NCBI GenBank assembly: GCA_016215115.1
Contig: JACRLN010000024.1
Span: forward strand, 35,337-99,336
DNA length: 64,000 nucleotides
Origin: Nitrospirota bacterium
Lineage (GTDB): Bacteria; Nitrospirota; Thermodesulfovibrionia; UBA6902
Direction of reading: 5' to 3'
A program made the position numbers and the translations under genes. Positions 1 through 37,643 of the stretch are shown here, in pieces; the first letter of the stretch is position 1, and each line of letters opens with the position of its first letter. Under the pieces are notes generated by a model, which was given only the letters and a program-made list of their open reading frames with translations, searched no databases and was not told where the DNA came from.

Positions 1-1
1 T

Positions 2-295
2 ATCGGCAGGGCCGAAGTGAGAAACCTGTTCCATATATCCAGGCTCGGAACGGTTGCCGGCTGTTATGTGCTAGACGGGAAAATTACAAGAGCAAATTCA
101 AGCGTAAGGATCATAAGAGACAATGTCGTTGTTTATGAGAGCAAACTATCATCGTTAAAGAGATTCAAAGAAGATGCAAGAGAAGTGCAGGCGGGATTTG
201 AATGCGGCATAATGGTTGAAAACTTCAATGACCTAAAGGTCGGCGATATAATTGAAAATTATGTCAAAGAAGAAGTCGCCGCCAAGTTTGAATAA
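2..295 (+). CDS. infB: translation initiation factor IF-2, C-terminal fragment (5' end outside window)
   Basis: Open frame from the window edge; translated peptide matches the conserved IF-2 C-terminal domain ([27 protein letters not shown] ... GFECGI ... DLKVGDIIE). Followed by DUF503 as in the nusA-infB-rbfA operon. Confidence 0.85.
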
Positions 296-342
296 ACTTA
301 TTCCTGATTAATATCATCCCTTATTTAGCAATGCTGAGTTTC

Positions 343-419
343 AAAATCCCCCTTAATCCCCCTTTTCCAAAGGGGGAGATTCAACCCCTCTTTGAAAAAG
401 AGGGGCAAGGGGAGATTTT
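343..419. repeat. Family A MITE-like repeat, copy 1 (terminal AAAATCCCCC / GGGGAGATTTT, internal CCCCCTTTTCCAAAGGGGG and CCCCTCTTTGAAAAAGAGGGG hairpins)
   Basis: Seen directly. Near-identical architecture recurs at 21563-21638, 53572-53670 and 62295-62445. Confidence 0.8.
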
Positions 420-427
420 ATAATAAT

Positions 428-709
428 ATGATCGTCGGTCTCCTTACTTTGGATTTACATATACAAGAGTCCCATTCCCTGAAGGAGAAACGCTTCGTTA
501 TAAAAAGCTTAATAGACAGGATAAAAAACAAATTCAATGTCTCTGTAGCAGAAGTTGACGCCAATGATCTCTGGCAGCGAAGCGTTATCGGAATAGCTTA
601 TGTCTCAAATGAGACAGTAATGATAAACAAGGTCTTTGAGCAGATTAAAAACCTGGTTGTCAGCATCCATTCGGTAGAATTGATCAATGCCAACATGGAA
701 CTGCTGTGA
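428..709 (+). CDS. DUF503 (YlxP-like) small protein
   Basis: The ORF-track start at 392 lies inside the family A repeat, so the ATG at 428 (MIVGLLTLDL) is more plausible. The position immediately after infB is typical for DUF503. Confidence 0.65.
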   Translation: MIVGLLTLDLHIQESHSLKEKRFVIKSLIDRIKNKFNVSVAEVDANDLWQRSVIGIAYVSNETVMINKVFEQIKNLVVSIHSVELINANMELL

Positions 710-831
710 TGTGGAATAGAGTTAACGCATTGATACATACAAGACATCCTCTTGCGAGGCAAAGAAATATCTTAAGGATAGGTTTATTGGGAAGGCTTGA
801 CATTGGAAGACAAGAGTAGTATATTGGTAGT

Positions 832-1062
832 ATGAAAGTTAAGACATCTATAACTCTTTCAGAAGACCTGATTCACAGCATTGATGAGAAAGTTGGTAAG
901 CAGAAAAACTTATCGGAGTTTATTGAGAAGGCAGTATGGGATTTCATTGAAAGACAGGAACGAAAGAAAAGAGACCTGAAAGACCTTAAGATACTCAATA
1001 AAAAGGCTGAGAAACTTAACAGAGAAGCAGAAGATGTTCTGTCTTATCAGGCTGATTTATGA
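832..1062 (+). CDS. ribbon-helix-helix (CopG/MazE-like) antitoxin
   Basis: 76 aa. N-terminal beta-strand/RHH-like start ([19 protein letters not shown]) and a charged C-terminus. Its stop overlaps the start of the downstream MazF-like gene by 4 bp (ATGA). Confidence 0.55.
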
Positions 1063-1385
1063 GACGAGGCGAGCTTTATCGCGTGCATAAGGGAACGCCT
1101 CATGATCCTAAAAAGTTTCGTGTATTTGTCATAGTAAGCCGCCAGGTGCTTATTGATTCAAGGCTCTCAACAGTAATCTGTGCGCCGATTTATTCAAGTC
1201 ATGACGGCTTATCTACTCAGGTAAAAGTCGGTATTGAAGAAGGTCTGAAACACGACAGCAGTATCCACTGTGATGAACTTGTCAGCATCCCAAAGTCATT
1301 ATTAACCTATTATGTAAGTTCTCTTTCTCCTGAAAAAATGCAGGAACTGAATGACGCATTGGGAGTTGCGTTAGGTTTACATTAG
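1059..1385 (+). CDS. mazF: MazF/PemK-family mRNA interferase toxin
   Basis: 108 aa with PemK/MazF hallmarks (GELYRV ... PHDPKKxRxFVIVS ... [10 protein letters not shown] ... CDELVSIPK). Translationally coupled to the upstream RHH gene. Confidence 0.65.
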
Positions 1386-1895
1386 GCAGCACACCCACGC
1401 CCACTCAAACAGCGTAATTCCAGTGTAACAGGCAATAGTCCAGTAAACATTGCCTATAATCAAGCTGCCCGTGAATATCTTCCAGTCTCTTCCACTCATG
1501 CCGTTGAATTTGCCGTGGCGCATATAGGCAGTGGTAATGAACGGGTCGAATTTTATAGATAAAAACAGGAACACTACCGGAACGCTCTTTTTCATGATCC
1601 ACGTAGTCAACCGCCCTATTCTTTTGCCGCCCTCATATCCTTTGATTCCTTTTATCGCCTCAATGCCGAGCCAATCCTTTTTTGACCAGTCGTAGAATTT
1701 CATAGACAGGATACAGACTATAAATGAAAGAACTGTCATCACAATGCCGCCCTTGAGAATGCCGAATTTATAAATGATATAAGGATAAAGAACGTAACTG
1801 AAAGCGCCTCCCATCAGACCAAGAGCGGTTATGCCGATAGTTAATTCAGACATTCTGCCTTTATAGGTCAGGACTTTTTCGATAAACTTGTTCAT
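1377..1895 (-). CDS. hypothetical multi-pass membrane protein
   Basis: 172 aa with 4-5 predicted hydrophobic helices and no recognisable motif. Confidence 0.4.
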
Positions 1896-1938
1896 GCTAT
1901 TACCCTCTGAAAGAGGGATGAAAGGAGATTTTACAGAA

Positions 1939-3273
1939 TTATTTCAATCTATTAATCCGCTGCAAACATTTGTTCACTTCTTCCTCCAGATGCACTGGAT
2001 AACACCGCCAGTATTTATCAGCAGCTTTATCCGAAGGCAGTAATTGTACTACTAATGGTTTAACGCCAAAATGCTTTATTACCTGTTCATAGGCAGGCAT
2101 AACAACTGTGTTTAAAAATATTTCTTCTTCTTTTGACGTGACAAAGTTCTCAAAAAGGACTCCGTGACATATAAAGAGGGAAAGAAAATATTTATAGTAT
2201 TCTTTTGCCTTTTTACCGTGTGTTTTATACCATGATGAAGCATCATATATATCAATAGTCGGCAACCCCGATTTTAATAACCTGTGATGAAAGTCAACAA
2301 GATTCTCACCAAAGATCGTCTTAATTTCGTTTAACATTTTCTTTTCAGCCGTCATAAGGTCGATGATTTTTCGGTAGTGAAATATCATATGCTCTTTTCC
2401 ATTTCTTCTATCAAGAAAAGGCATCTTTCCCAGAGCGACCTTGTCTGCATTTCTTGTACAAAACTTATCCTCTAAATATTCCCAACCAAGTGGTTTGAGA
2501 TTTGTCTTGTTAGCTAACCCCTGAAAATGCATATTTTCAATATTAGATGTCATTATATGTCTAAACAGGACAGCTCTTGGTTCTTTTTTCAATGCTTCAG
2601 GTATTTCACCTAAATAATCCAAAACCTTCTTACTGAGTGATACATTATTCCAACGTTTCCAAACTTCTACTTTTGCTTCTTCAAGAGATGTATATATGCC
2701 CATTATCTCTTTATGCTGAGAATTCTGTTTATTCGTTGCCGGGTTGTAATATATCGCTTCAATATAATCCGCCGGTTCTTCATGATTGTAATAACGCCAC
2801 CTTTCAACCCTTCTAATCTGAGTAAACAGATATTCTTTATTAAAAACTTTTTGAATCACCTTACTTAATCCATTACTGACTCTTGCATGCATTGAAAACT
2901 TGTTAACTCCAAATCGTTTCTCCGCTTCATCCCTCATTTTATAAAGCATTCTGGAAAAACCACTTCCTTTTTGAAATTCAGGAAGTATTACCAAAGTTTC
3001 AACATAATATCTTCCGGAATCTTCTTTCATCTCAGGATCATCTTCCCCTATTTCGCAAAAAGCTTCATTATGAGGGATTGCGAGGAGATAGCCCGCTGTC
3101 TTTCCATTATCCTGCAGAAGAATATTTATGTTCTTATCTTTTTCAAGCATACTGCCGTAATATTCCTTTTCATCGTCATATGTCCAGCCATTAGGGAATG
3201 CCTTGCCCCTGACAAGTATAATCTCTCTCAGCGCCTTCTCATCAAAGCAATTTAGAACTTCAACTGTAAGCAT
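1939..3273 (-). CDS. GNAT N-acetyltransferase domain fused to a C-terminal domain of about 290 aa of unknown function
   Basis: 444 aa. The N-terminal 150 aa have a GNAT motif A (LPEFQKGSGFSRMLY). The C-terminal part has no motif I can assign. Divergently transcribed from the XRE regulator. Confidence 0.6.
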   Translation of the reverse strand: MLTVEVLNCFDEKALREIILVRGKAFPNGWTYDDEKEYYGSMLEKDKNINILLQDNGKTAGYLLAIPHNEAFCEIGEDDPEMKEDSGRYYVETLVILPEFQKGSGFSRMLYKMRDEAEKRFGVNKFSMHARVSNGLSKVIQKVFNKEYLFTQIRRVERWRYYNHEEPADYIEAIYYNPATNKQNSQHKEIMGIYTSLEEAKVEVWKRWNNVSLSKKVLDYLGEIPEALKKEPRAVLFRHIMTSNIENMHFQGLANKTNLKPLGWEYLEDKFCTRNADKVALGKMPFLDRRNGKEHMIFHYRKIIDLMTAEKKMLNEIKTIFGENLVDFHHRLLKSGLPTIDIYDASSWYKTHGKKAKEYYKYFLSLFICHGVLFENFVTSKEEEIFLNTVVMPAYEQVIKHFGVKPLVVQLLPSDKAADKYWRCYPVHLEEEVNKCLQRINRLK

Positions 3274-3478
3274 AGTTTTAGCGTTTATACCAGTAAAGAG
3301 ACTTTTTATTAATTATTGTGATGGGAGCTATTGTTCTAATAGATATAATTTAAGCTCGATAATAGCCCTAATGAATACAATTCTATCCCCAATAAGAACT
3401 TATTGTCAATAAAATAGTTCTTACTAAGCCGTTCATATTTTGTTTCTTTAAAGGGTATTTTTGAAAGGAGAAATAAAT

Positions 3479-3796
3479 ATGAACGAAAAGAAATTAATAG
3501 GACGACGGATTAAAGAGTTAAGGAGAAGTAAAGAATTATCTCAGGAGAAGCTCGCAGAATTGGCAGAAACAAGCCCTAATTATCTAAGCCGTATGGAGCG
3601 AGGCACGGAAAACCCCACGCTTGACATGCTCATAAAACTCTCCAATGCCCTTGAAGTGGAAATGTGGGAGATATTTGACTTCGGTCATGTCACAGAGCGC
3701 AAGGCTCTGAAAGAGTCCCTCCAAGCATTCCTCAAAACCGCAGACGAACCTACCCTCCGCCTCGCCCTGAAAATCATCAGAGCAGTTGCGAGATAG
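3479..3796 (+). CDS. XRE-family helix-turn-helix transcriptional regulator
   Basis: HTH_XRE signature (LIGRRIKELRRSKELSQEKLAELAETSPNYLSRMERG). AAGGAG ribosome-binding site upstream of the ATG at 3479; the ORF track began at an upstream TTG at 3461. Confidence 0.7.
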   Translation: MNEKKLIGRRIKELRRSKELSQEKLAELAETSPNYLSRMERGTENPTLDMLIKLSNALEVEMWEIFDFGHVTERKALKESLQAFLKTADEPTLRLALKIIRAVAR

Positions 3797-3860
3797 AATA
3801 GTTTTAGTCTTCTGCTCATTCGATTTAATAAATATGCTACAATTAAACAACTGGAGGTGT

Positions 3861-4106
3861 ATGATGCCGACAACAAAAAAGACATTTTATCGAGAACCTA
3901 ATGATACATATTTCAGAGAGCATTTATCTGAATTTGTTAAAGAACACGGCGGCGACTATGTTGTCATTGCAGGCGGACAATTAATAGGATTTGCCCGTAA
4001 GGATAACATCTCCTCACTTATGAAGAAAGCACGGGAAATGTTCCCTGCCGATATACCAATGTTATCTCCCATACCACGAGAGGAAGAATTAGAGTGCATT
4101 CTCTAA
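3861..4106 (+). CDS. small hypothetical protein, partner of the retropepsin-like gene
   Basis: GGAGGTG ribosome-binding site precedes the ATG at 3861 (MMPTTKK). About 81 aa. Its 3' end overlaps the next gene by 13 bp. Confidence 0.5.
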   Translation: MMPTTKKTFYREPNDTYFREHLSEFVKEHGGDYVVIAGGQLIGFARKDNISSLMKKAREMFPADIPMLSPIPREEELECIL

Positions 4107-4501
4107 TATTCCCCTACCAGTTAATAAATAAAAGGCATATTCCAGTAATCCCTTTAATTCTTCATGGTTCTCGAAATACAAAAATAAGAACAGAGGCATT
4201 TGTTGATTCCGGCGCAACATTCAGTATTTTTAATGTAGATATTGCAAAAAGTCTGATGCTCAATCTCAAAAATGCACGTGAACAGTTTTTCGTAGTCGGA
4301 GACGGCAGCTTCATACCTGCAAAGGTTATAAAAATACCGGTTGAGATAGGCAACGAAAAAATTATCTCAGATATTGCCTTTTCTGAAAAACTGAATATCG
4401 GCTTTAATTTGCTCGGCAGAAAAGGAATATTTGAATATTTTGATGAAATAGCTTTTAATGAAAAAGCAAAAGAAGTTATTTTTAGATGGAAAGCGAGATA
4501 G
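4094..4501 (+). CDS. retropepsin-like (clan AA) aspartic protease domain protein
   Basis: Contains the aspartyl-protease active-site signature FVDSGATFSIF (D-S/T-G-A) followed by the hydrophobic-Gly pattern. GTG start overlaps the upstream small gene. Confidence 0.6.
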   Translation: MHSLIFPYQLINKRHIPVIPLILHGSRNTKIRTEAFVDSGATFSIFNVDIAKSLMLNLKNAREQFFVVGDGSFIPAKVIKIPVEIGNEKIISDIAFSEKLNIGFNLLGRKGIFEYFDEIAFNEKAKEVIFRWKAR

Positions 4502-4507
4502 TAAACT

Positions 4508-4885
4508 ATGCACCCATATAAACGTTCAGCAAGGGTCGGTGATTTAATACGGGAAGAAATCGCTGACATTATATTGAATAAGATCAAACACAAAACACTC
4601 GGCTTCATTACAGTTACCGGAGCAAAGGTTAGCGATGACCTGAGAAATGCAACAGTATTCCTAAGCGTTCTTAATAGCGAAGACGCGGACAAGACAGTGC
4701 GGAAACTCACTGAATCATCGGCTTTTATCAGAGGCGAACTCGGCAGAAGGCTGAAGATGAAGTTCGTCCCGTCTCTTACTTTCAGGATTGACGAGTCAAT
4801 TCAATACGGGATGAAAATTGACAAATTACTCAATAACATTAAATCAGAAAGGAACGCACCTGACGAAGATGAAGATCTCTTCTAA
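4508..4885 (+). CDS. rbfA: ribosome-binding factor A
   Basis: 125 aa. RbfA-like sequence (RVGDLIREEIADII ... ITVTGAKVSDDLRNATVFLSV) in the conserved position after infB and before truB. Confidence 0.85.
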   Translation: MHPYKRSARVGDLIREEIADIILNKIKHKTLGFITVTGAKVSDDLRNATVFLSVLNSEDADKTVRKLTESSAFIRGELGRRLKMKFVPSLTFRIDESIQYGMKIDKLLNNIKSERNAPDEDEDLF

Positions 4886-5849
4886 ACTGCTCAATGTTAT
4901 CAGGCAGAATAAATCTTTTCTTATTGTGGGACATATTAATCCGGAAGGCGATGCAATCGGTTCAGTATTGGCGCTTGCGCTCGGATTGAAAAAGATGGGA
5001 AATAATAACACCTATCCCCTGAGCAAAGACGGCGTGCCTGAAATCCTGAAGTTCCTGCCCTCATCAAGAACAATAAAACAAACTCCCCCTAAAAAAGAAG
5101 TTGATGTCTTATGTATAGTAGACTGCAATACACTGGAACGAACCGGCTTTAAGGAATTAAAAGCGAAACACACCGTTATTATCGATCATCATATCCCGCC
5201 TGATGATGCGGATAAATCCGAACTGTACAGGAAATCGGCGGCAAGCGTCATTGATACCGGAGCCGCGGCAACAGGGATGCTCATTTATAAGCTTTTGTCT
5301 GCGCTCAAGATATCCATCGATAAAAACATTGCCACAAATTTATACACAGCATTACTTGTAGACACCGGAGGATTCAGATATTCCAACACCTCGCCTGAAG
5401 CCTTAAAGATTGCATGTCATCTCATTCAGGCCGGCGCAAGACCGTGGGATATAGCAAAAGAATTATACGAAAGCATCCCCTTCAAATCAATGAAGCTTTT
5501 AGGCCTTTCACTCGCTACCCTTGATAAAAAAGACGGCATAGCGTGGATTACCGCTGCTACGGACATGTTCAAAAAGACAGGCACAACCTACGAGGATTCT
5601 GAAGATTTTGTCGATTTTCCCAGAAAGGTCAAGGATATCGAGGTGGCTGTTTTTTTCAGGGAAGATGATAAAAATGTATTCAAGCTCAGCCTCCGTTCAA
5701 AAGGCAGGATTAATGTCGAAAAGATCGCAAAAAGTTTCGGAGGCGGCGGACATTTCGCAGCCGCAGGATGCAAGATAAAAGGGACTTTGCAGGAAGTACA
5801 GAAAAAGGTCTTTGCGGAAGTAAGGAAAGCTATAAAGGATGCGAAATGA
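4869..5849 (+). CDS. nrnA: DHH-family phosphoesterase NrnA (bifunctional oligoribonuclease / pAp phosphatase)
   Basis: DHH motifs (VGHINPEGDAIGS, IIDHH) and the DHHA1 GGGH motif. The ORF-track start at 4818 overlaps rbfA, so the internal ATG (MKISSKLL) is preferred. Confidence 0.75.
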   Translation: MKISSKLLNVIRQNKSFLIVGHINPEGDAIGSVLALALGLKKMGNNNTYPLSKDGVPEILKFLPSSRTIKQTPPKKEVDVLCIVDCNTLERTGFKELKAKHTVIIDHHIPPDDADKSELYRKSAASVIDTGAAATGMLIYKLLSALKISIDKNIATNLYTALLVDTGGFRYSNTSPEALKIACHLIQAGARPWDIAKELYESIPFKSMKLLGLSLATLDKKDGIAWITAATDMFKKTGTTYEDSEDFVDFPRKVKDIEVAVFFREDDKNVFKLSLRSKGRINVEKIAKSFGGGGHFAAAGCKIKGTLQEVQKKVFAEVRKAIKDAK

Positions 5850-6000
5850 ACTACTTAGTTGAAATCGGAGCTACAAGTTTGTCATTCCGTACTTGATGCG
5901 GAATTCAGTAGGGGCAATTCATGAATTGCCACTACATATTCTCTGGATTCCCGTTTACACAGGAATTACAGAAGAACTGGAATTACTTGTTTACAACCTC

Positions 6001-6903
6001 ATGGACCTTATAATCGCCCTTAACAAACCCAAAGATATCACATCTCAAGACGCTGTTACAAAAGTAAAAAAGATTTTAAAAATAAAAAAGGCCGGCCATA
6101 CCGGCACGCTTGACCCGATGGCAACAGGGCTTCTGCTTGTATGTATAAACAGGGCCACGCGGCTTGCTTCATATTTTTGCAACCTCGATAAAGAATACAG
6201 GGCTGTAATGAAACTCGGTGAGACAACTGATACGCAGGATGCTTACGGTAAAATTATTGCTAAGAGCGATAAAATTGAAATCGGCAACACCATAATAGAA
6301 GAGTGTTTAATATCATTTAAAGGCAACATATTACAGCAGCCACCTATGTTCTCTGCATTAAAACACGAAGGGCAGCCGCTCTACAAATTGGCAAGAAAAG
6401 GAATTGAAGTTGACAGGAAACCAAGAGAAGTAAGCATATATGATATTGATCTTATTAATATTAACTTTCCATATGTGACGTTCCGTGTTGTGTGTTCAAA
6501 AGGAACTTATATAAGAACACTATGCGATGATATAGGCAAAAAACTTGGTGTTGGCGCACACCTTTTTGAACTTGAGCGCACAGCAATAGGGTCCTTCAGA
6601 ATTGCAAACAGCTTAACTATTGAAGAATTAATAAGTTTAAATATAAATGAACCAGACGGAAAAGGTGTTTACACAATGGATAAGGCTTTATCATGGATGC
6701 CGGCATTTAAAATAGATGATGCAACAATAAAAGCTGTCAAGCATGGAAATCCGATCAGGATTCTAACTCTTTCTGATGATTACAAAAAAGCAGAAGGCAT
6801 AAGAATAAAATCACCTGATGATGAATTTCTTGCAGTCGGCAGTTTTTCCCCTGAGAGAAATACTATTAAAATGGATGTGGTATTTGCATGTGAAAAAAAC
6901 TAA
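6001..6903 (+). CDS. truB: tRNA pseudouridine(55) synthase
   Basis: TruB catalytic motif (GHTGTLDPMATGLLLVCI) and a PUA-like C-terminus. The start was chosen at an internal Met (MDLIIALNKP), and the upstream extension is uncertain. Confidence 0.8.
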   Translation: MDLIIALNKPKDITSQDAVTKVKKILKIKKAGHTGTLDPMATGLLLVCINRATRLASYFCNLDKEYRAVMKLGETTDTQDAYGKIIAKSDKIEIGNTIIEECLISFKGNILQQPPMFSALKHEGQPLYKLARKGIEVDRKPREVSIYDIDLININFPYVTFRVVCSKGTYIRTLCDDIGKKLGVGAHLFELERTAIGSFRIANSLTIEELISLNINEPDGKGVYTMDKALSWMPAFKIDDATIKAVKHGNPIRILTLSDDYKKAEGIRIKSPDDEFLAVGSFSPERNTIKMDVVFACEKN

Positions 6904-7174
6904 ATTACAAAATAAAAACGAATTAACCCTGAAAATTAAAGTTGAACCCCGCTCATCCAGGGCAGGCATCATCGGTCAATACGGCGATGCCCTGAAAGTC
7001 AAACTCACCTCCCCTCCTGTTGAAGGAAAAGCAAACAAGGAACTAATTGAAATCCTTGCAAAAGAATTTAGCATTGCCAGAAAAGATATTGAAATAATTT
7101 CGGGGCAGAGTTCCAAAAATAAAATTGTAAAACTCTACGGTGTGAAAAGCGTTAAGGACAGATTGGAAAAATGA
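6875..7174 (+). CDS. DUF167 (YggU-like) protein
   Basis: Conserved DUF167 core (LKIKVEPRSSRAGIIGQYGDALKVKLTSPPVEGKANKELIEILAKEF). The start is uncertain and overlaps the truB 3' end. Confidence 0.6.
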   Translation: MWYLHVKKTKLQNKNELTLKIKVEPRSSRAGIIGQYGDALKVKLTSPPVEGKANKELIEILAKEFSIARKDIEIISGQSSKNKIVKLYGVKSVKDRLEK

Positions 7175-7185
7175 GAATCCTGTTT

Positions 7186-8412
7186 TTACAGAAAGGTTCC
7201 TTTTTTATTCTTTTTATTGCTGTACATAAGTTTATCTGCCTCAGCCAGCAGCTCATCGGCAGAAAGAGGCGATGTCGGATCAAAACACGATATACCGACA
7301 CTGATTGAGAGCTTGTAACCGTGTTCTTCCTGTACATTGTAAGCATCGATGTTTTTCTGCAGTCTATCCATAATTATTTCAACATGGCCCTCTGAGGTCC
7401 CTACGGGGAAAACCACAAACTCATCGCCGCCGATGCGGGCGATAATGTCGGATTCACGGTACGTTGCTTTCAGGATATTGGCTGTCACAAGCAACACCTC
7501 ATCACCATTATTGTGTCCCAGGGTATCATTGATTTCTTTCAGATTATCCAGGTCCGCATAAAGCAGCATAAGTTTCATGTTTTGACGTTTGGCTAATTTC
7601 AGATGATGCTCAATCAGTTTGAAGAAACCCCGTCTGTTGTAAAGCCCTGTCAGTTCATCGGTAATTGAAAGGCTGTGCAGTTGCTTTTCTATCTTCTTGC
7701 GTTCAGTGATATCCCTGACTACATGTATCAGACCTGTTATCTTATTATTTCTGTCCCGTCGCGGGATCGCCCGTATTTCCATAAACATATTTAAATGAGG
7801 CTCAAATATTTCAGAATTGCAGGGTTCACCTGTAGTTAGGGAATTGCAGCTCGGACACCCCCGCAAAGGCTTTTCTGTGCCATGATAATGCGTATAACAT
7901 TTTGAATTAAATATCTTATCCAGGACAGGCAATTGAAACTTTTCCAGCGCTGACCTGTTGGCCCGTATGATATTAAAATCCTTGTCATGAATTGTGACAA
8001 TGTCTGTGATGGAATTGAAGACGTCTTCCCAGTCTTGCTTGGCCTGAAGGATGGTTTCTTCCGCTTTCTTAAGCTCGACTATTTGCCGTTGAAATGGCTT
8101 TATCAACAAAATGTAAATTATCGGGAATATTGTTAATGTCAATAAAGACGCATCAAGGAGAGCCCCCCGAAACTTCAATGAAAAAGACAAAATAGGAAAA
8201 ACAAGCATGACAACAACTTCTGTCAGGAATATCGACACCACAGCAATGAGAAAGAGATGAAGAGGTTTGCTGTAATTTAATTCAGTCCTTAGGGATAGTG
8301 AATCCCTTGAGTCCTTGTTTGAAGAATTCATATTTGCCATGTATTCAGATTTCATATAATAATATCCCGTCGGTCTGCTATTTGTGACTCTTATCGGCAT
8401 TTCAATCACCAT
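7186..8412 (-). CDS. membrane-anchored PAS-GGDEF diguanylate cyclase
   Basis: Two N-terminal TM helices, a PAS-like domain with a Cys cluster (CYTHYHGTEKPLRGCPSCNS) and an intact GGDEF active site (RIGGDEFVVF). Confidence 0.8.
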   Translation of the reverse strand: MVIEMPIRVTNSRPTGYYYMKSEYMANMNSSNKDSRDSLSLRTELNYSKPLHLFLIAVVSIFLTEVVVMLVFPILSFSLKFRGALLDASLLTLTIFPIIYILLIKPFQRQIVELKKAEETILQAKQDWEDVFNSITDIVTIHDKDFNIIRANRSALEKFQLPVLDKIFNSKCYTHYHGTEKPLRGCPSCNSLTTGEPCNSEIFEPHLNMFMEIRAIPRRDRNNKITGLIHVVRDITERKKIEKQLHSLSITDELTGLYNRRGFFKLIEHHLKLAKRQNMKLMLLYADLDNLKEINDTLGHNNGDEVLLVTANILKATYRESDIIARIGGDEFVVFPVGTSEGHVEIIMDRLQKNIDAYNVQEEHGYKLSISVGISCFDPTSPLSADELLAEADKLMYSNKKNKKGTFL

Positions 8413-32013: not shown

Positions 32014-33585
32014 ATGAAGCTGCGCTATAAAATAATAGGCATATGCATGGTCTTCTCCTTAATTGCCGGTATTACTATATTCTTCAGTATTGACACAATC
32101 ATTTCTTTGAAAGATAATTTTTCGAGGGTTACAGATGAAACAATGCCGGTTATCAAAAGCCTCGAGGATTTAAGGTTCGCAGCTCTCAGGATAGTCTCTT
32201 CTACACATGAATTTGGCCTTATCATCGCAGAAACGAAAACAGCTGATAAAGCTGAAAAAAATCAGGAACGGAAAGAAGAGAATCATATAAAATCTGCAAA
32301 AGAACTATATGAAAACGCCCTTAAGAGGTATGAATATTTAACAAATATGAATTCTCCGGGAAAAAGAGATCATGTGAAAAACGTGCATGAAGCGGGACAG
32401 CATTTTCTACAACTGAGCGAACAATTCATAGAAATGAAAGAACATGGTTCTGCCGGTTTAGAAATCCTTGAGATAATGAAACAATTTGAAAATGCAAAAA
32501 TATTTTTCCTGAATACAATAAACATGCACCTCGATCAGGAAGGAAAAGAGCTTCAGGAACGAAGAGCGAAAGTTGCATCCATGTATGGGAATGCGATTAA
32601 AACAATATTTATTGTGAGTGGGACCACATTTTTCATGGCCCTGATAAGCAGCTTAATAATGTCAGTGTTCATCACGCGTCCGATTGAGAAATTAAAGCTT
32701 GCTGCTGCCATGATAGGACAGGGCGCTTTAGACACTAAGGTAGATATAAGATCTAATGACGAGATTGGAGAACTGGCAAGGTCTTTTAACAAAATGACCT
32801 GTGACTTGAAAAAATCACGCGATGAATTATCTTCAACAACCGAAAGGCTAAAACAGAGCAACAAAGAACTTCATGAATTTCTTTTCATCGCTTCGCATGA
32901 TCTTCAGGAGCCCTTACGGAAAGTCATGGTATTCGGAGATCGGTTGAAGGACACCGACTCAGAAATTCTCAGCGAAAAGGGACGGGATTATATTGAGCGA
33001 ATGCAGAATACAACAAGGAGAATGCAGGTACTTATCAATGACCTCCTGTCATTTGCAAGAGTAAGCATTAATACCAAACCCTTTATCCCGGTTGATCTTT
33101 CCATGGTAGCTAAAAATGTGACAACTGATATAAAAGCTCTTATTAAACAAACAGGAGGGAGTGTTGAAGTCAAAGAACTGGCTGCGTTGGATGCTAACCC
33201 TGTCCAGATGCATCAACTGTTTTTTAACATTATTGACAATGCTTTAAAATTCCGTAAAAAGAACGAACCACCTGTCGTTACAGTGCAAGGCGCATATATT
33301 CCAAAAAATGGAGCTGACCAAAGCAGCAGTTCTAACGAATGCGGATTATACCAAATCACAATTGAAGACAACGGCATAGGCTTTGATGAAAAGTATGCAG
33401 AACGCATCTTCAGGGTTTTTCAGAGACTGCATGCCAGAAATGAGTATTCAGGGACCGGTATCGGTCTTTCAGTCTGCAAAAAGATTGTAGAGCGCCATGG
33501 CGGAAGTATTTCGGCGAAAAGTGCGCCTGGCGATGGCACGAAATTAATTGTAACCTTACCAGTCAAACAGAGTAATGGGGGATAA
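32014..33585 (+). CDS. membrane sensor histidine kinase (2 TM, HAMP, HisKA, HATPase_c)
   Basis: H-box ASHDLQEPLRKV, plus N/G boxes (DNGIGFDEKYAERIF, GTGIGLSVCKK). Confidence 0.8.
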   Translation: MKLRYKIIGICMVFSLIAGITIFFSIDTIISLKDNFSRVTDETMPVIKSLEDLRFAALRIVSSTHEFGLIIAETKTADKAEKNQERKEENHIKSAKELYENALKRYEYLTNMNSPGKRDHVKNVHEAGQHFLQLSEQFIEMKEHGSAGLEILEIMKQFENAKIFFLNTINMHLDQEGKELQERRAKVASMYGNAIKTIFIVSGTTFFMALISSLIMSVFITRPIEKLKLAAAMIGQGALDTKVDIRSNDEIGELARSFNKMTCDLKKSRDELSSTTERLKQSNKELHEFLFIASHDLQEPLRKVMVFGDRLKDTDSEILSEKGRDYIERMQNTTRRMQVLINDLLSFARVSINTKPFIPVDLSMVAKNVTTDIKALIKQTGGSVEVKELAALDANPVQMHQLFFNIIDNALKFRKKNEPPVVTVQGAYIPKNGADQSSSSNECGLYQITIEDNGIGFDEKYAERIFRVFQRLHARNEYSGTGIGLSVCKKIVERHGGSISAKSAPGDGTKLIVTLPVKQSNGG

Positions 33586-33617
33586 CATATGACTAATTAT
33601 AAGGATAGAGGCATTGA

Positions 33618-35054
33618 ATGTTTAAATCAATAAAACTAAAGATACTTGCCGCGCAAATTGTTATGAGCCTGCTTACGGCTCTTACGATAACCATCTTCAG
33701 AAATGCTGCAATTATTTTCCTCATAGTACTTGGCATAAGCATTATAATCTCCCGGAAACTGTCTTATAGCATAACGGCACCGATTATCAAACTCTCCAGG
33801 ACGACTCAGGGCGATTTTTTACAAAAAGTGCATATCGACTCAAATGATGAAATCGGCTTCCTTGCTGCCTCTATCAACCGGTTGATGGAAACTCTCCAGA
33901 AAACAATGAGGTCCTGCGAGGCATTTCAGGAACAAAGTGAATTCCTCAAGCATGTTGTCAATTCAATCCCCTATCCTTTTATTGTCTTAAATGCTGCAGA
34001 CTTCTCTGTTAAACTGGCAAACTCAGCCGCTTCACAATCAGGAGACTTCAAAAACATGCCCTGTTATGAAATAGCTAAACTGTCTGACATGCCATGCGTA
34101 GGCCATGAGCACAAGTGTTGTCTCGAATCAATAAAAGAGACTAAAGAACCGGTAATCATAGAGTGTCTGCATCATGATAAAGATGACAATAACAGATATT
34201 ACAGAATCCATGCTCATCCGATTTTTAATGACGGGGGGGACGTTACAGAGATAATCGAGTACTCAATTGATGTTACTGAAAGCAAGCGTGCAGAGATTGA
34301 TATCATAATGTATGCGGAAAAACTTAGGATAAGCAACAGGGAATTTCAGGAATTTTCCTATGTGGCCTCCCATGACCTTCAGGAGCCCTTACGGAAAGTG
34401 ACAGCTTTTGGTGACCGCCTGAAAGCCACATGTGGAGATGCTCTCGGGGAGAAAGGCAGTGATTACCTTGAGAGAATGCTGAACTCCGCAAAACGAATGC
34501 AGAACCTGATAAACGGTTTATTGGCTTTTTGCCATGTTACAACAAAGGCCCAGCCTCTTGTTCACGTGGACCTCTCCGTAATAACAAAAGAGGTTCTATC
34601 TGATCTCGAAGTGCGTATCGAACAGACTGGCGGACGGGTTGAAGTCGGAGATCTCCCCACACTGAATGCAGATCCGCTTCAGATGAGGCAATTATTACAG
34701 AACCTTATTGGTAATTCCCTTAAATTCCACAAAAAGGACGAACCTCCTGTTGTCAAAATTTCAGGATCTTTTATAAACAGTAATGGAAATAATCCAACTA
34801 TTGGACTTGATGACGGGAAACCCTATCAGATCATGGTTACAGACAACGGCATAGGATTTGATGAAAAATATGCAGAGCGTATATTTGGCGTATTTCAGAG
34901 GCTGCATGGCAGACAGGAGTATGAAGGAACCGGCATCGGTCTCTCTGTTTGCAAAAAAATTGTCGAAAGACACGGCGGAACCATAACTGCAAAAAGTACC
35001 CCGGGAGAAGGAACAACATTTATAGTGACGCTCCCTGTAAAGCAGTCAAATTGA
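33618..35054 (+). CDS. sensor histidine kinase (TM, HAMP, Cys-containing PAS, HisKA, HATPase_c); paralog of the upstream kinase
   Basis: H-box ASHDLQEPLRKV. The C-terminal 230 aa are near-collinear with the 32014 kinase. The PAS region carries PCYEIAKLSDMPCVGHEHKCC. Confidence 0.8.
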   Translation: MFKSIKLKILAAQIVMSLLTALTITIFRNAAIIFLIVLGISIIISRKLSYSITAPIIKLSRTTQGDFLQKVHIDSNDEIGFLAASINRLMETLQKTMRSCEAFQEQSEFLKHVVNSIPYPFIVLNAADFSVKLANSAASQSGDFKNMPCYEIAKLSDMPCVGHEHKCCLESIKETKEPVIIECLHHDKDDNNRYYRIHAHPIFNDGGDVTEIIEYSIDVTESKRAEIDIIMYAEKLRISNREFQEFSYVASHDLQEPLRKVTAFGDRLKATCGDALGEKGSDYLERMLNSAKRMQNLINGLLAFCHVTTKAQPLVHVDLSVITKEVLSDLEVRIEQTGGRVEVGDLPTLNADPLQMRQLLQNLIGNSLKFHKKDEPPVVKISGSFINSNGNNPTIGLDDGKPYQIMVTDNGIGFDEKYAERIFGVFQRLHGRQEYEGTGIGLSVCKKIVERHGGTITAKSTPGEGTTFIVTLPVKQSN

Positions 35055-35170
35055 GCATATAACCTGCTTTATCCATTTATTTAAGAAATTAATATTTTTT
35101 GCCGATATATAAAAAGTTGCAAGGGGACATAATATTACCTTACAGCAAAATTAATAACAGTTAAAGTGAA

Positions 35171-36961
35171 ATGACTGACAAAGTAATAAAAATACTGCTG
35201 GTGGACGACGATGAGGATGATTATATCATGACCCGGGACCTGCTTTCCGGGGTCGAAGGCACACACTACGAATTGCAGTGGATTAAAACCTATGACAGCG
35301 CCGTTGAAATTATTGATCAGAAAAATCATGATGTTTATCTTTTTGATTATCACCTTGGCGAACACACTGGACTGGAGCTCCTGCTTCAGGTAATCAAAAA
35401 TGGATGCAGGGCGCCGATTATCATGCTGACCGGCCAGGGGGACAAGGAATTAGACATGCAGGCAATGAAAACAGGCGCAGCAGATTACCTTGTGAAAGGA
35501 CACATCAATTCCCCGCTGCTGGAACGGTCTATCAGGTATGCCATTGAACGAAAGCGCTCAGAAGAAGATATATACCGGATGGCATATTATGACATCCTGA
35601 CCAATCTCCCGAACCGTCTTCTTTTCAGGGACCGACTGAAACAGGCGATCGGCCTTGCCGAACGTTATAACAGGCTGGGTGCGGTAATGTTTCTTGATCT
35701 CGACAACTTCAAGCGTATCAACGATACCTTTGGCCACTATACAGGTGACCAGCTATTAAAAAGTACCGCTGAACGTCTAAAAAACTGTATGCGCAAATGC
35801 GACTCCCTGTCCCGGCAAAACGTTGATGATTCGGTCGACACAATTGCCCGTCTGGGCGGTGATGAATTTACAATAATACTTACAGAGATCAAGCACATCG
35901 AAGATTCTGCAAAAGTAGCACAGCGGATTCTCGGCAGCCTGTCAGAGCAGTTTGTGCTGAACGACCATGAAATATTTATAAGCGCAAGTGTCGGCATAGC
36001 CATATATCCGCATGATGGAAAAGATATTGACAGCATTCTAAAAAACGCAGATGCGGCGATGTATCATGCAAAGGCAGAGGGGAAAAATAATTACCAGTAT
36101 TACAAACAGTCCATGAACGCTTCCGCACTTGAAAAACTTACGATGGAAAATGACCTTCGGAAGGCGCTTGAACGGAAAGAGTTTACTCTCTATTATCAGC
36201 CACAGATTGATATCGCAAAGCGTAAAATAGTCGGGCTGGAAGCGCTGATAAGATGGCACAGGACAGACAAGACAGTAGTTTTACCTGCAGATTTTATTCC
36301 ACTGGCCGAAGAAACCGGCTTAATAATTCCAATAAGCAATTGGGTAATACATACGGCCTGTGAGCAAAATAAGGCGTGGCAGGCTGCCGGTTTTTCAAAT
36401 ATTCCCATATCAGTCAACATTTCCAATCTGCAGTTTCAGCAAAAAAATTTCGTAAATACTATTGTTCAGGTTTTGAGAGATACCGGCCTGCGCCCGGGAA
36501 ATATCATACTGGAAATTACCGAAAGCACAATTATGCATAATGCAGATATGGTATTTGCAACATTATATGAACTGTCTTGCATGGGATTACGGCTCACAAT
36601 TGATGATTTCGGAACCGGTTATTCGTCCCTGAGCTATCTGAAACGCATTCCTCTTTATTCCATAAAGATCGACCGTTCTTTTATAAAGGAACTACCTGAC
36701 AGTCCTGATGATGCAGCAATTTCAAAGGCGATCATTTCGATGGCGCATTCTCTGAAACTAAGAGTTGTTGCAGAAGGCGTTGAAACAGAACAGCAACTGG
36801 CATTTTTATCTAAACAGGGATGCGACGAGTTTCAGGGATTTCTTTTCAGCCGTCCCTTGCCTGCAGACGAGATTTTTAAATTATTGACCGGGGAAAGAAA
36901 TGGTGCGGGCCTCATGTTGTCATCTTTGCACAAAATATCGGAACCCGTGCAGAAGACTTAA
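35171..36961 (+). CDS. response regulator with REC-GGDEF-EAL domains
   Basis: REC (ILLVDDDEDD ... phospho-Asp region), GGDEF (RLGGDEFTII) and EAL (LEALIRW ... conserved downstream motifs). Confidence 0.85.
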   Translation: MTDKVIKILLVDDDEDDYIMTRDLLSGVEGTHYELQWIKTYDSAVEIIDQKNHDVYLFDYHLGEHTGLELLLQVIKNGCRAPIIMLTGQGDKELDMQAMKTGAADYLVKGHINSPLLERSIRYAIERKRSEEDIYRMAYYDILTNLPNRLLFRDRLKQAIGLAERYNRLGAVMFLDLDNFKRINDTFGHYTGDQLLKSTAERLKNCMRKCDSLSRQNVDDSVDTIARLGGDEFTIILTEIKHIEDSAKVAQRILGSLSEQFVLNDHEIFISASVGIAIYPHDGKDIDSILKNADAAMYHAKAEGKNNYQYYKQSMNASALEKLTMENDLRKALERKEFTLYYQPQIDIAKRKIVGLEALIRWHRTDKTVVLPADFIPLAEETGLIIPISNWVIHTACEQNKAWQAAGFSNIPISVNISNLQFQQKNFVNTIVQVLRDTGLRPGNIILEITESTIMHNADMVFATLYELSCMGLRLTIDDFGTGYSSLSYLKRIPLYSIKIDRSFIKELPDSPDDAAISKAIISMAHSLKLRVVAEGVETEQQLAFLSKQGCDEFQGFLFSRPLPADEIFKLLTGERNGAGLMLSSLHKISEPVQKT

Positions 36962-36999
36962 AAAACAGAAATCAAAATTATATAAGGAGGCAGAATCAA

Positions 37000-37446
37000 A
37001 TGGAAAAAGACCCCAAATCTATAACAATTCTCATGGCTGATGACGATGAGGATGACCGTCTTATGGCGGAAGAGGCGCTGAAAGAAGCTAAACTGTTAAA
37101 TCCCGTACGCTTTGTTAAAGATGGTGAGGAACTGCTTGATTATCTATATCAACGCGGCGAGTATTCAAACGGAAATAGCGCTCCCCGTCCCGGATTAATC
37201 CTGCTTGATTTGAATATGCCAAGAAAAGACGGCCGTGAGGCGCTCATGGAAATCAAGCAAGACCCTGAACTGAAGCAAATACCAATTGTAGTGCTGACAA
37301 CATCAGTGTCTGAAGAAGATATTTATCGTACTTACGATCTCGGCGTAAATTCATACATTACAAAGCCGGTCGCCTTCGAGGGATTGGTGGAGGTAATGAA
37401 AAACCTGGCAAACTACTGGTTTAATATTGTAAAACTGCCATCTTAA
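37000..37446 (+). CDS. stand-alone CheY-like response regulator receiver
   Basis: ILMADDDEDD ... LILLDLNMPRKDG ... K. Confidence 0.8.
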   Translation: MEKDPKSITILMADDDEDDRLMAEEALKEAKLLNPVRFVKDGEELLDYLYQRGEYSNGNSAPRPGLILLDLNMPRKDGREALMEIKQDPELKQIPIVVLTTSVSEEDIYRTYDLGVNSYITKPVAFEGLVEVMKNLANYWFNIVKLPS

Positions 37447-37460
37447 GGCAGAGGCATGAA

Positions 37461-37540
37461 ATAGAAGAAGTTGAGAAAATTGGAAGATGAGAAGTTGTGC
37501 CCTTTTGCCTTCATAATTTCCGGACATTCCCTTAAGCTTT
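37461..37540. repeat. Family D element (AGAAGAAGTTGAGAAAATTGGAAGATGAGAAGTTG ... inverted CTTTTGCCTTCATAATTTCCGGACATTCCCTTAAGC)
   Basis: Seen directly, 3' of the REC gene. Confidence 0.6.
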
Positions 37541-37643
37541 AACATATTTAATCCGATATAAATAAACGAGAGGAGAGCGCTCGTTTTTCAGCGTGTATAA
37601 TGCATGTGCAGTCTGAAAAAAGTACATATTAAGTGGTAAAAAA

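What the first reader, a model, noticed from the sequence alone, without database searches (positions are those of the whole stretch)
1939..3796. GNAT acetyltransferase fused to a 290-aa domain of unknown function, paired divergently with an XRE regulator
The 444-aa protein has a clear GNAT core at the N-terminus but a long C-terminal domain with no motif I can recognise (...HFQGLANKTNLKPLGWEYLED ... HHRLLKSGLPTIDIYDASSWYKTHG ...). GNAT toxins that acetylate aminoacyl-tRNA, such as TacT and AtaT, pair with small DNA-binding antitoxins. Here the partner would be an XRE HTH protein transcribed divergently, and the enzyme is 2.5 times larger than a GNAT toxin. This may be a new acetyltransferase-based toxin or effector, or a metabolite-modifying enzyme.
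Basis: inference. Interest (0 to 1): 0.55.

Follow-up and report, generated by a model that had tools for sequence, protein, structure and literature searches.

The report
GNAT fused to uncharacterised amine-pathway enzyme
The gene is real, but it looks like part of a small, horizontally acquired operon that modifies and probably exports a polyamine-like amine, not a toxin-antitoxin pair; its C-terminal half belongs to a large protein family that nobody has described.

Summary
A 444-aa ORF lies at 1939-3273(-). It has an N-terminal GNAT domain and a roughly 255-aa C-terminal domain ("C-dom") with no Pfam, NCBIfam, PADLOC, PHROG or PDB sequence match. An XRE repressor gene is transcribed divergently from it.

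The toxin reading is not supported. C-dom is usually a stand-alone protein. The family has about 970 clusters at 50% identity, mostly in CPR/Patescibacteria, Bdellovibrionales and Nitrospirota.

The conserved partner is the downstream 172-aa membrane protein at 1377-1895(-) ("MEM"). In related loci the same XRE|...MEM operon carries mix-and-match amine enzymes:
- an AdoMet-decarboxylase homologue
- spermidine synthase
- an agmatinase-like arginase
- a GARS-like ATP-grasp ligase
- GNAT, SET, class I methyltransferase or formyltransferase

C-dom and the ATP-grasp ligase are largely mutually exclusive. MEM, EamA and a third membrane protein are also mutually exclusive.

Best reading: a modular operon that modifies and exports an amine or polyamine, with C-dom possibly a ligase. 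The substrate and chemistry are unknown. The window copy lacks the decarboxylase.

The parts
1939..3273 (-). 444-aa two-domain protein: GNAT, linker, then the uncharacterised C-dom
   Evidence: ORF. Homologues found. AF2 model has pLDDT 92.3 and pTM 0.73.
2749..3273 (-). GNAT acetyltransferase domain (residues 1-175)
1942..2706 (-). C-dom (residues 190-444): member of a large uncharacterised family with a Rossmann-like fold of the HUP class (class I aaRS / nucleotidyltransferase type)
1377..1895 (-). MEM: 172-aa membrane protein with about 4 TM segments, 43 bp downstream on the same strand; the most constant partner of the operon
   Evidence: 56-62% identical to the gene directly downstream of C-dom in L004, L005 and L007. 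Present in 38 of 88 C-dom loci, and mutually exclusive with EamA and mem194. 299 homologues, none annotated and none with a Pfam domain.
3479..3796 (+). XRE-family HTH regulator, divergently transcribed (the ORF could also start at 3461)
   Evidence: HTH_3 E=1.9e-15. 74% identical to the divergent XRE of L007. A divergent XRE is present in 14 of 30 MEM loci that have >=3 kb upstream. Called as 105 aa on identical contigs.
3380..3409 (-). Sigma-70-like promoter for the GNAT-C-dom/MEM operon (TTGACA, 18 nt spacer, TAGAAT; 11 of 12 matches)
   Evidence: This is a consensus match only.
3390..3423 (.). Overlapping inverted repeats (CAATAAG-aa-CTTATTG at 3390-3405; TAAGAACT/AGTTCTTA at 3393-3400 and 3416-3423) covering the -35 box; candidate XRE operator
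   Evidence: The L007 intergenic region has its own perfect palindrome, CTATTGGGTATA-tatt-TATACCCAATAG. The operator role is inferred.

Best explanation
The locus is a three-gene accessory operon: XRE repressor | GNAT-C-dom, then MEM. It is a cut-down member of a modular family of operons that make, N-cap and probably export a polyamine-like amine.

Proposed working, with the basis for each step:
1. The XRE protein binds the palindromes over the -35 box and represses the divergent operon. This is inferred.
2. C-dom is a Rossmann-like domain of the class I aaRS / nucleotidyltransferase type. Its conserved acidic, histidine and aromatic residues sit at the strand ends. I propose that it binds an adenosine-containing cofactor (ATP or (dc)SAM) and a cationic amine, and acts as a ligase or transferase on the amine. 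This is inferred from the fold and from its near mutual exclusivity with a GARS-like ATP-grasp carboxylate-amine ligase.
3. The fused GNAT acetylates a free amino group of the substrate or product using acetyl-CoA. The fold is shown; the substrate is inferred. In sister operons a SET domain, a class I methyltransferase or a formyltransferase takes the same slot.
4. MEM moves the product across the membrane. This is inferred because MEM is interchangeable with an EamA transporter.

Most relatives also carry an AdoMet-decarboxylase homologue that supplies the amine or dcSAM. The window copy has none, so it would depend on the cell's own pool.

In CPR bacteria and Bdellovibrionales the XRE is replaced by a 7TM histidine kinase with a response regulator. 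This suggests that the product is sensed.
For: **C-dom is an independent, widespread protein.**
- 217 homologues, of which only 5 carry a GNAT.
- 969 clusters at 50% identity.

**GNAT and C-dom are functionally linked (fused in some genomes, adjacent genes in others).**
- Fused in the window and in P0001-4, P0007 and P0121.
- Separate adjacent genes in L002/3, L015, L039 and L042.

**A SET domain occupies the same slot.**
- Fused to C-dom in P0150, P0160, P0220 and P0261.
- Adjacent in 13 of 88 C-dom loci and directly upstream of MEM in 18 of 61 MEM loci.

**XRE-type sister operons:**
- AdoMet_dc, [GNAT-]C-dom, MEM (L004, L005, L007, L008, L102, L148).
- AdoMet_dc, Spermine_synth, C-dom, SET, MEM (L094).
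- AdoMet_dc, GNAT, MEM with no C-dom (L095).
- AdoMet_dc, GARS-like ATP-grasp, PrmA/TYW2-like methyltransferase, Arginase family (E=8e-57), MEM (L120).
- ATP-grasp..., formyltransferase, C-dom, MEM (L144).

**Mutual exclusivity.**
- C-dom versus ATP-grasp in 33 MEM loci: 16 C-dom only, 9 ATP-grasp only, 2 both, 6 neither (Fisher p=0.008).
- Membrane partners in 88 C-dom loci: MEM only 37, EamA only 22, mem194 only 9, two of them 1, none 19.

**Fold and other evidence.**
- The weak non-toxin matches of the GNAT profile include the diamine/polyamine acetyltransferases SSAT2 and DpA.
- The AdoMetDC homologues keep the Ser, His and Cys needed for self-processing (compared with PMC10407285).
- A strong promoter is overlapped by palindromes.
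Against: - No biochemical evidence exists for any component.
- C-dom lacks HIGH and KMSKS and has no profile-level similarity to any ATP-using family.
- The window has no AdoMetDC, SpeE or agmatinase gene anywhere in its 64 kb. The polyamine link for this particular copy is by homology of context only.
- SET domains and the nearest GNAT relatives (Naa30/50, 'RimI-like') are classically protein-modifying enzymes.
- Close stand-alone homologues of the GNAT occur without C-dom or MEM (L088-L090).
- The co-occurrence counts use my own ORF calls and ad hoc HMMs, and they are not corrected for phylogeny.
Confidence: 0.45

Rival explanations
1. It is a protein-modification system. GNAT, SET and the PrmA-like methyltransferase are alternative 'writer' domains that acetylate or methylate a lysine or N-terminus of a protein target. 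C-dom would be the substrate-recognition or adaptor module, and the target could be MEM, the histidine kinase or a translation factor.
For: - SET domains are known only as protein lysine methyltransferases; this rests on established knowledge.
- The GNAT subfamily is labelled 'RimI-like' by a source.
- Its nearest solved relatives are the Nα-acetyltransferases Naa30 and Naa50 and Ard1/Naa10.
- C-dom is co-transcribed with a histidine kinase in 62 of 88 loci.
Against: The other recurrent partners are small-molecule amine enzymes and a metabolite transporter:
- AdoMetDC homologue
- spermidine synthase
- arginase family / agmatinase
- GARS-like ATP-grasp ligase
- formyltransferase
- EamA

In addition, C-dom has an enzyme-like cluster of invariant polar residues.
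Confidence: 0.15
2. It is a signal synthase and exporter module. C-dom, with accessory GNAT, SET or AdoMetDC enzymes, makes a diffusible amine-derived signal. MEM or EamA exports it, and the adjacent 7TM histidine kinase senses it, like CqsA/CqsS or LuxM/LuxN pairs. The window version would be an XRE-controlled derivative. This extends the best explanation rather than excluding it.
For: - A 7TM HisK lies directly downstream of C-dom (median gap 11 bp) in 62 of 88 loci, with response regulators in 13.
- Exporter-like partners are present.
- The family is enriched in epibiotic or predatory lineages: CPR, Bdellovibrionales, Micavibrio.
Against: - No histidine kinase is linked to the window copy; the nearest are about 30 kb away.
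- No precedent was found in the literature searches.
- The XRE protein is too small (105 aa) to be an obvious ligand receptor.
Confidence: 0.2
3. It is a GNAT toxin-antitoxin or effector module. The GNAT acetylates aminoacyl-tRNA, the aaRS-like C-dom supplies tRNA or aminoacyl recognition, and XRE is the antitoxin.
For: - The C-dom's best structural neighbours are class I aaRS catalytic cores.
- The locus sits in an accessory insertion flanked by TA modules.
- XRE proteins serve as antitoxins in other TA families; this rests on established knowledge.
Against: - No PADLOC hit.
- The XRE is divergent, and it is conserved in operons without GNAT (L007, L008, L102).
- More than 90% of C-doms have no GNAT.
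- The conserved partners are MEM and biosynthetic enzymes.
- C-dom lacks an anticodon-binding domain and the HIGH and KMSKS motifs.
Confidence: 0.04
4. It is a decaying remnant. The window copy has lost the AdoMetDC gene and is a non-functional or neutral passenger of a mobile islet.
For: - AdoMetDC is present in 6 of the 7 sister XRE-type operons examined individually (L004, L005/L006, L007, L008, L094, L095) and absent from the window.
- GC content is lower, 0.365 against about 0.40.
- TA modules flank the locus.
Against: - All three ORFs are intact.
- 44 of 46 family-conserved C-dom residues are kept.
- A strong promoter is present.
- MEM has the invariant residues of its family.
- The identical locus was recovered from several sequencing runs.
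- There is no AdoMetDC pseudogene fragment in the intergenic region.
Confidence: 0.1

Closest known systems
GNAT toxins of type II TA systems (TacT, AtaT, KacT, ItaT)
   Same: GNAT fold, and a small DNA-binding protein encoded next door.
   Different: The toxins are single-domain proteins of about 170 aa, co-transcribed with an upstream RHH/DUF1778 antitoxin. Here the protein has 444 aa and two domains, the XRE is divergent, a third conserved gene (MEM) is present, and no sequence similarity was found.
Polyamine N-acetyltransferases (SpeG, SSAT1/2, DpA)
   Same: GNAT fold. The context of relatives includes AdoMetDC, spermidine synthase and agmatinase homologues. Weak profile matches were found to SSAT2 (E=0.014) and DpA (E=0.06-0.08).
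   Different: The similarity is not significant and the GNAT forms its own small subfamily (about 15 hits). It is fused to an unrelated 255-aa domain. No activity data exist.
Carboxylate-amine ligases with the class I aaRS / nucleotidyltransferase (HUP) fold: BshC, MshC, PanC, and class I LysRS itself
   Different: C-dom has no HIGH or KMSKS motif and no sequence or profile similarity. Foldseek is non-significant. C-dom has a distinctive N-terminal helical hairpin (YTxLEEAKxEIWxRW) and an FHH motif.
Polyamine clusters with neofunctionalised SpeD homologues (Li et al. 2023, PMC10407285)
   Same: Class 1b AdoMetDC homologues that keep the processing Ser, His and Cys. They sit in small clusters with SpeE or agmatinase and are common in CPR and Nitrospirota.
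   Different: That paper mentions no GNAT ('acetyltransferase' and 'GNAT' each occur 0 times). C-dom and MEM have no published names, so their absence from the paper could not be searched for. The window copy lacks the SpeD homologue.
Autoinducer synthase and membrane histidine kinase pairs (CqsA/CqsS, LuxM/LuxN)
   Same: In most C-dom loci a cytoplasmic enzyme is encoded directly beside a multi-TM sensor kinase, together with exporter-like proteins.
   Different: The enzyme folds are unrelated and no signal molecule is known. The window copy has an XRE instead of a kinase.
LysX (an MprF-type GNAT-fold lysyl-PG synthase fused to LysRS in mycobacteria)
   Same: A GNAT-fold transferase fused to an aaRS-type domain, working together with a membrane component. 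This comparison comes from memory and was not tested.
   Different: LysX carries a complete class II LysRS and a tandem-GNAT DUF2156 domain. Neither is present here.

Membership tests
GNAT superfamily (Pfam Acetyltransf_1) | Profile match above the gathering score | tested here: met
   21.9 bits against a cut-off of 20.7, E=2.3e-4, residues 25-134. The match is marginal.
GNAT superfamily (Pfam Acetyltransf_1) | GNAT α/β fold | tested here: met
GNAT superfamily (Pfam Acetyltransf_1) | Acetyl-CoA pyrophosphate-binding motif A (Q/R-x-x-G-x-G/A) | tested here: inconclusive
   Q101-K-G-S-G105-F is in the expected β4-α3 position, but the spacing is not canonical. Relatives have R-G-G, R-x-x-G-x-S or R-K-S-A-A.
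GNAT type II toxins (TacT/AtaT/KacT/ItaT) | Sequence or profile similarity to known toxins | tested here: not met
   No NCBIfam toxin model matched. A PDB profile search up to E=10 listed 29 GNATs, none of them a toxin. No PADLOC hit.
GNAT type II toxins (TacT/AtaT/KacT/ItaT) | Two-gene operon with an upstream, co-directional RHH/DUF1778 antitoxin | tested here: not met
   The neighbour is a divergent XRE. The conserved co-directional partner is a membrane protein.
GNAT type II toxins (TacT/AtaT/KacT/ItaT) | Regulator co-varies with the GNAT | tested here: not met
   The same XRE is present in operons that lack GNAT (L007, L008, L102).
GNAT type II toxins (TacT/AtaT/KacT/ItaT) | Acetylation of aminoacyl-tRNA and growth arrest | not testable with these tools
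   Needs a toxicity assay and tRNA mass spectrometry.
Class I aaRS / HUP nucleotidyltransferase superfamily (C-dom) | Rossmann-like fold of the HUP class | tested here: inconclusive
Class I aaRS / HUP nucleotidyltransferase superfamily (C-dom) | HIGH (HxGH) motif after the first strand | tested here: not met
   The family consensus after β1 is R-x-I-x-T-P-N-x-E. The only His pair (F328-H-H330) lies at a later helix.
Class I aaRS / HUP nucleotidyltransferase superfamily (C-dom) | KMSKS loop and anticodon-binding domain | tested here: not met
   Absent. The domain ends about 40 residues after the last strand.
Class I aaRS / HUP nucleotidyltransferase superfamily (C-dom) | Sequence or profile similarity | tested here: not met
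   A PDB profile search gave only noise. Pfam on 59 members gave only noise. hhalign against CysRS and TrpRS gave probability below 1%.
Polyamine biosynthesis/modification cluster built around a SpeD homologue | AdoMetDC (PF02675) homologue in the operon | tested here: not met
   Absent from the whole window (tblastn; HMM). It is present in the sister XRE-type operons L004, L005/L006, L007, L008, L094 and L095, and in 10 of 30 MEM loci.
Polyamine biosynthesis/modification cluster built around a SpeD homologue | Orthology of the remaining genes with those of clusters that do contain polyamine enzymes | tested here: met
   MEM is 56-62% identical, XRE up to 74% and C-dom 46-65% identical to the genes of AdoMetDC-containing operons.
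XRE-family transcription regulators | Cro/C1-type HTH | tested here: met
   HTH_3 E=1.9e-15, residues 17-67.

The most novel reading that the evidence does not exclude
C-dom defines a new enzyme family with a class I aaRS-like fold but without HIGH or KMSKS. It builds a previously unknown class of N-capped (acetylated, methylated or formylated) amine or polyamine conjugates. A dedicated small membrane protein exports these, and in CPR and predatory bacteria an adjacent 7TM histidine kinase senses them. That would be a new small-molecule signalling chemistry in the least-understood bacterial lineages, and the window's GNAT fusion would give the clue to the chemistry.
Probability: 0.15. Interest if true: 0.8.

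Novelty: new variant of a known kind. Interest (0 to 1): 0.55.

Why it matters
C-dom and MEM are large protein families with no name, no Pfam model, no solved structure and no paper found in the searches here. They are concentrated in CPR/Patescibacteria, Bdellovibrionales and Nitrospirota, lineages where most conserved operons are unexplained.

The gene fusions and mix-and-match neighbourhoods assembled here give a concrete and cheap experiment: LC-MS of amines after expressing a 3-4 gene operon. The relevant partners are:
- GNAT, SET, a class I methyltransferase or a formyltransferase
- an AdoMetDC homologue, spermidine synthase and an agmatinase-like enzyme
- an ATP-grasp ligase that substitutes for C-dom
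- EamA, which substitutes for MEM

If the product is a modified polyamine, this would add a new branch to bacterial polyamine metabolism. It might also explain what the 7TM kinases of CPR bacteria sense.

For annotation pipelines the practical lesson is that a GNAT next to a small HTH gene should not be called a TA system by default.

Tried and rejected
- **TA or defence membership.** NCBIfam, PADLOC and PHROGs gave no hit for GNAT-C-dom or MEM. A GNAT profile against the PDB found no toxin.
- **Sequence route to the C-dom's function.** phmmer and a profile search against the PDB, Pfam on 59 members and hhalign against CysRS, TrpRS and AspRS alignments from the loci gave nothing.
- **Foldseek against the PDB.** No significant match. 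The AFDB50 library was not available.
- **AdoMetDC in the window.** I looked for a degraded or relocated gene. tblastn with four homologues gave only noise, and the 205-bp intergenic region holds no remnant.
- **Other typical partners in the window.** There is no 7TM kinase, EamA or Cys-rich partner near the locus.
- **Phage origin.** No C-dom was found in viral contigs.
- **Shared operator.** The window's palindrome is not present in any other locus. L007 has a different palindrome.
- **Convergent PemK toxin next to MEM.** This arrangement also occurs in L094, but the two toxins share no detectable similarity, so I treat it as coincidence.
- **MEM versus mem194.** hhalign gave only E=0.026, so homology is unproven.
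- **Literature.** Searches for AdoMetDC with defence, HisKA_7TM, Patescibacteria with kinase and AdoMetDC, and aaRS-like with GNAT and SET found nothing relevant.
Full report
**1. Observation**

- Pfam sees only a marginal GNAT (Acetyltransf_1, E=2.3e-4, residues 25-134) and nothing in the C-terminal half. The neighbour is a clear XRE (HTH_3, E=1.9e-15).
- NCBIfam, PADLOC, PHROGs and PDB sequence searches add nothing for the large protein.
- The gene is real: 217 homologues, the best at E=2.5e-164.
- Identical copies of the locus occur on several independently assembled contigs. On these the XRE is called as 105 aa, which puts its start at 3479, just after an AGGAG.
- The downstream membrane protein is 100% identical to 'hypothetical protein HZB30_06325 [Nitrospirae bacterium]'. 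The window is therefore from a Nitrospirae MAG.

**2. Anatomy of the protein**

With a 66-sequence alignment, AlphaFold2 gives a confident two-domain model (pLDDT 92.3; the linker at residues ~176-192 is the least confident part).

The C-terminal domain, residues 190-444 ("C-dom"), was modelled on its own and gives pLDDT 95.3 and pTM 0.92.

- This is a resemblance of fold only. Foldseek against the PDB finds nothing significant. Profile searches of the PDB and Pfam give noise. hhalign against CysRS and TrpRS alignments gives probability below 1%.
- The HIGH and KMSKS motifs are absent. The loop after the first strand reads R-x-I-x-T-P-N-x-E.
- Across 261 diverse members the conserved polar residues (window numbering) are R207, R238, E246, E265, D269, N275, K278, T319, H329, H330, D344, S346, E375 and E383, together with Y194, W348, Y360, W422 and Y425.
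- Mapped on the predicted secondary structure, the polar residues from E246 onwards fall at the C-terminal ends of strands and the N-termini of helices. That is the usual active-site position in this fold. R207 lies in the N-terminal helices and R238 within the first strand. A site rich in acidic and aromatic residues suggests a cationic ligand; this is my inference.
- The window protein keeps 44 of the 46 positions conserved at >=80%.

**3. C-dom is a large, undescribed, normally stand-alone family**

- Of the 120 best homologues listed, all but five fusion proteins are proteins of mostly 244-290 aa (a few up to 392 aa) that match only the C-terminal 50-59% of the query, all annotated as hypothetical.
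- An exhaustive profile search finds 969 clusters at 50% identity (498 with E<=1e-30).
- The 80 loci fetched from species-representative genomes are mostly CPR/Patescibacteria (Moraniibacteriota, Saccharibacteria, Paceibacterota, Peribacteria). The rest are Bdellovibrionales, Micavibrio, Nitrospirae/Thermodesulfovibrionales and a few others.
- None was found in viral contigs.
- Besides the N-terminal GNAT (window, P0001-4, P0007, P0121), C-dom is found fused to a C-terminal SET domain (P0150, P0160, P0220, P0261).

**4. Neighbourhoods centred on C-dom**

I called ORFs in 88 loci and searched them with ad hoc HMMs.

| Partner within 4 kb on the operon strand | Loci (of 88) |
|---|---|
| 7TM histidine kinase, typically directly downstream (median gap 11 bp) | 62 |
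| Small Cys-rich membrane-anchored protein | 53 |
| MEM (homologue of window 1377-1895) | 38 |
| EamA transporter | 23 |
| AdoMet_dc homologue | 16 |
| SET | 13 |
| Response regulator | 13 |
| GNAT of the window's subfamily | 9 |
| A third small membrane protein (mem194) | 9 |
| Divergent XRE | 7 |
| Spermidine synthase | 4 |

The three membrane proteins are mutually exclusive: MEM only 37, EamA only 22, mem194 only 9, two of them 1, none 19. Because EamA is a metabolite transporter family, MEM is most simply read as a transporter. This is inferred.

The GNAT is fused in some genomes. In others it is a separate gene beside C-dom: 47% identical in L002 and L015, and about 20% identical in L039 and L042. 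This pattern indicates that the two work together.

**5. Neighbourhoods centred on MEM**

- MEM has 299 homologues, none with a name or Pfam domain.
- In L094 the operon reads integrase | XRE(div) | AdoMet_dc, Spermine_synth, C-dom, SET, MEM.
- In L095 it reads XRE(div) | AdoMet_dc, GNAT, MEM, with no C-dom.
- Among 30 metagenomic MEM loci with >=3 kb upstream, C-dom occurs in 16, a divergent XRE in 14, AdoMet_dc in 10, SET in 9 and GNAT in 4.
- Other genes in the same slot are a GARS-like ATP-grasp ligase, a PrmA/TYW2-like class I methyltransferase, an arginase-family enzyme (E=8e-57, agmatinase-like) and a formyltransferase.
- In 33 MEM loci with >=2.5 kb upstream, C-dom and the ATP-grasp ligase are nearly mutually exclusive: 16 C-dom only, 9 ATP-grasp only, 2 both, 6 neither. 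Fisher p=0.008, not corrected for phylogeny.

The AdoMetDC homologues keep the Ser, His and Cys needed for pyruvoyl formation. Li et al. 2023 (PMC10407285) showed that this class includes true AdoMet decarboxylases as well as arginine and ornithine decarboxylases, and that it is common in CPR and Nitrospirota.

**6. The window copy**

The module reads XRE | GNAT-C-dom, then a 43-bp gap, then MEM.

- MEM is 56-62% identical, and XRE up to 74% identical, to the genes of AdoMetDC-containing sister operons.
- The window has no AdoMetDC, spermidine synthase, EamA or Cys-rich gene anywhere in its 64 kb, and no remnant in the 205-bp intergenic region.
- A near-consensus promoter (TTGACA, 18 nt, TAGAAT; 3409-3380 on the minus strand) faces the operon. 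Two inverted repeats (3390-3405 and 3393-3423) overlap it and are plausible XRE operators. L007 has a different perfect palindrome in the equivalent place.
- The module lies in a roughly 3.8-kb accessory insertion between DUF503 (392-709) and rbfA (4508-4885) of the infB-rbfA-truB housekeeping operon. An RHH-MazF pair and a DUF5678/aspartyl-protease-like pair sit in the same insertion. The 2-kb segment holding most of the module has a lower GC content than its neighbours (0.365 against about 0.40).
- Sister operons also sit beside integrases, relaxases, BREX genes and TA genes.

**7. Interpretation**

The TA or toxin idea fails every criterion that could be tested.
- The XRE is retained in operons that lack the GNAT.
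- More than 90% of C-doms have no GNAT.
- The constant partner is a membrane protein.
- The variable partners are enzymes of amine and polyamine metabolism.

The best-supported reading is a modular, horizontally mobile operon with four roles:
1. An amine donor: a SpeD-type decarboxylase, with or without SpeE or agmatinase.
2. A ligase or transferase acting on the amine: C-dom or an ATP-grasp enzyme.
3. N-capping of a free amine: GNAT, SET, a class I methyltransferase or a formyltransferase.
4. A membrane step: MEM, EamA or mem194.

An XRE repressor (Nitrospirota type) or a 7TM kinase with a response regulator (CPR type) controls or senses the module.

What is shown: the folds, the fusions, the co-occurrence patterns and the presence of the promoter and palindromes. 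What is inferred: the substrate class, a ligase role for C-dom, transport by MEM and the operator function.

My rough confidences are:
- 0.75 that this is a small-molecule operon rather than a TA or toxin module.
- 0.5 that the substrate is polyamine-like.
- 0.3 that C-dom is an ATP-dependent ligase.

The main rival is a protein-lysine or protein-N-terminus modification system, because SET domains and the nearest GNAT relatives classically act on proteins.

**8. Novelty**

GNAT, XRE and SpeD-centred polyamine clusters are known kinds. C-dom and MEM are not in Pfam, NCBIfam, PADLOC, PHROGs or the PDB, and none of my literature searches found them. I therefore rate the locus as a new variant of a known kind (an amine or polyamine modification operon) built around two undescribed protein families. 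There is a modest chance that it represents a genuinely new chemistry or signalling system.

**Caveats**
- The counts rest on my own ORF calling and small HMMs.
- The loci are not phylogenetically independent.
- The AFDB fold library was unavailable.

Noticed in passing
window 832-1385 (+): An RHH (CopG-like, 76 aa) plus MazF/PemK (108 aa, E=2.7e-14) type II TA pair. Its 3' end overlaps the 3' end of the convergent MEM gene by 9 bp. A convergent PemK pair also follows MEM in L094, but the two toxins share no detectable similarity.
   Followed up: partly
window 3786-4501 (+): A two-gene pair with overlapping ORFs: a DUF5678 protein (called as 80 aa on identical contigs) followed by a 135-aa protein with weak retropepsin/gag-aspartyl-protease matches (E about 5e-4). 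It lies directly downstream of the XRE gene and upstream of rbfA. It looks like another small accessory or TA-like module.
   Followed up: no
window 1-7200: The housekeeping operon infB, DUF503, rbfA, nrnA-like DHH, truB, DUF167 is interrupted between DUF503 and rbfA by about 3.8 kb of accessory genes: a TA pair, the GNAT-C-dom module and the DUF5678 pair. GC content in the 2001-4000 segment is 0.365, against about 0.40 in the neighbouring segments.
   Followed up: partly
L017, L020, L024, L030, L041, L076, L082 and others (CPR and Bdellovibrionales loci): A strongly conserved operon: [AdoMetDC], EamA or MEM, a 115-230 aa membrane-anchored Cys-rich protein (no Pfam), C-dom, a 7TM histidine kinase, then response regulator(s). 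AspRS often follows. No function is known for it, and it could be a signalling unit specific to epibiotic or predatory bacteria.
   Followed up: partly
P0106 (392 aa), P0125 (418 aa), P0187 (482 aa): Further C-dom fusions with no Pfam match: a C-terminal extension with an HEMLH (HExxH-like) motif, a C-terminal CxxC-rich domain, and an N-terminal multi-TM domain of about 220 aa.
   Followed up: no
L088, L089, L090: Stand-alone GNATs that are 51% identical to the window's GNAT domain occur without C-dom or MEM. One lies inside an integrase/HicAB/AIPR island. This GNAT subfamily therefore also functions on its own.
   Followed up: yes
window 32014-44040 (+): A cluster of at least three histidine kinase ORFs and five response-regulator-like ORFs on one strand. 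They were detected only through the kinase and receiver-domain parts of my HMMs, and they are not linked to the finding.
   Followed up: no
window 7186-8412 (-): A 408-aa protein that I read by eye, without a Pfam search, as membrane-anchored with a GGDEF (diguanylate cyclase) type domain, downstream of truB/DUF167.
   Followed up: no
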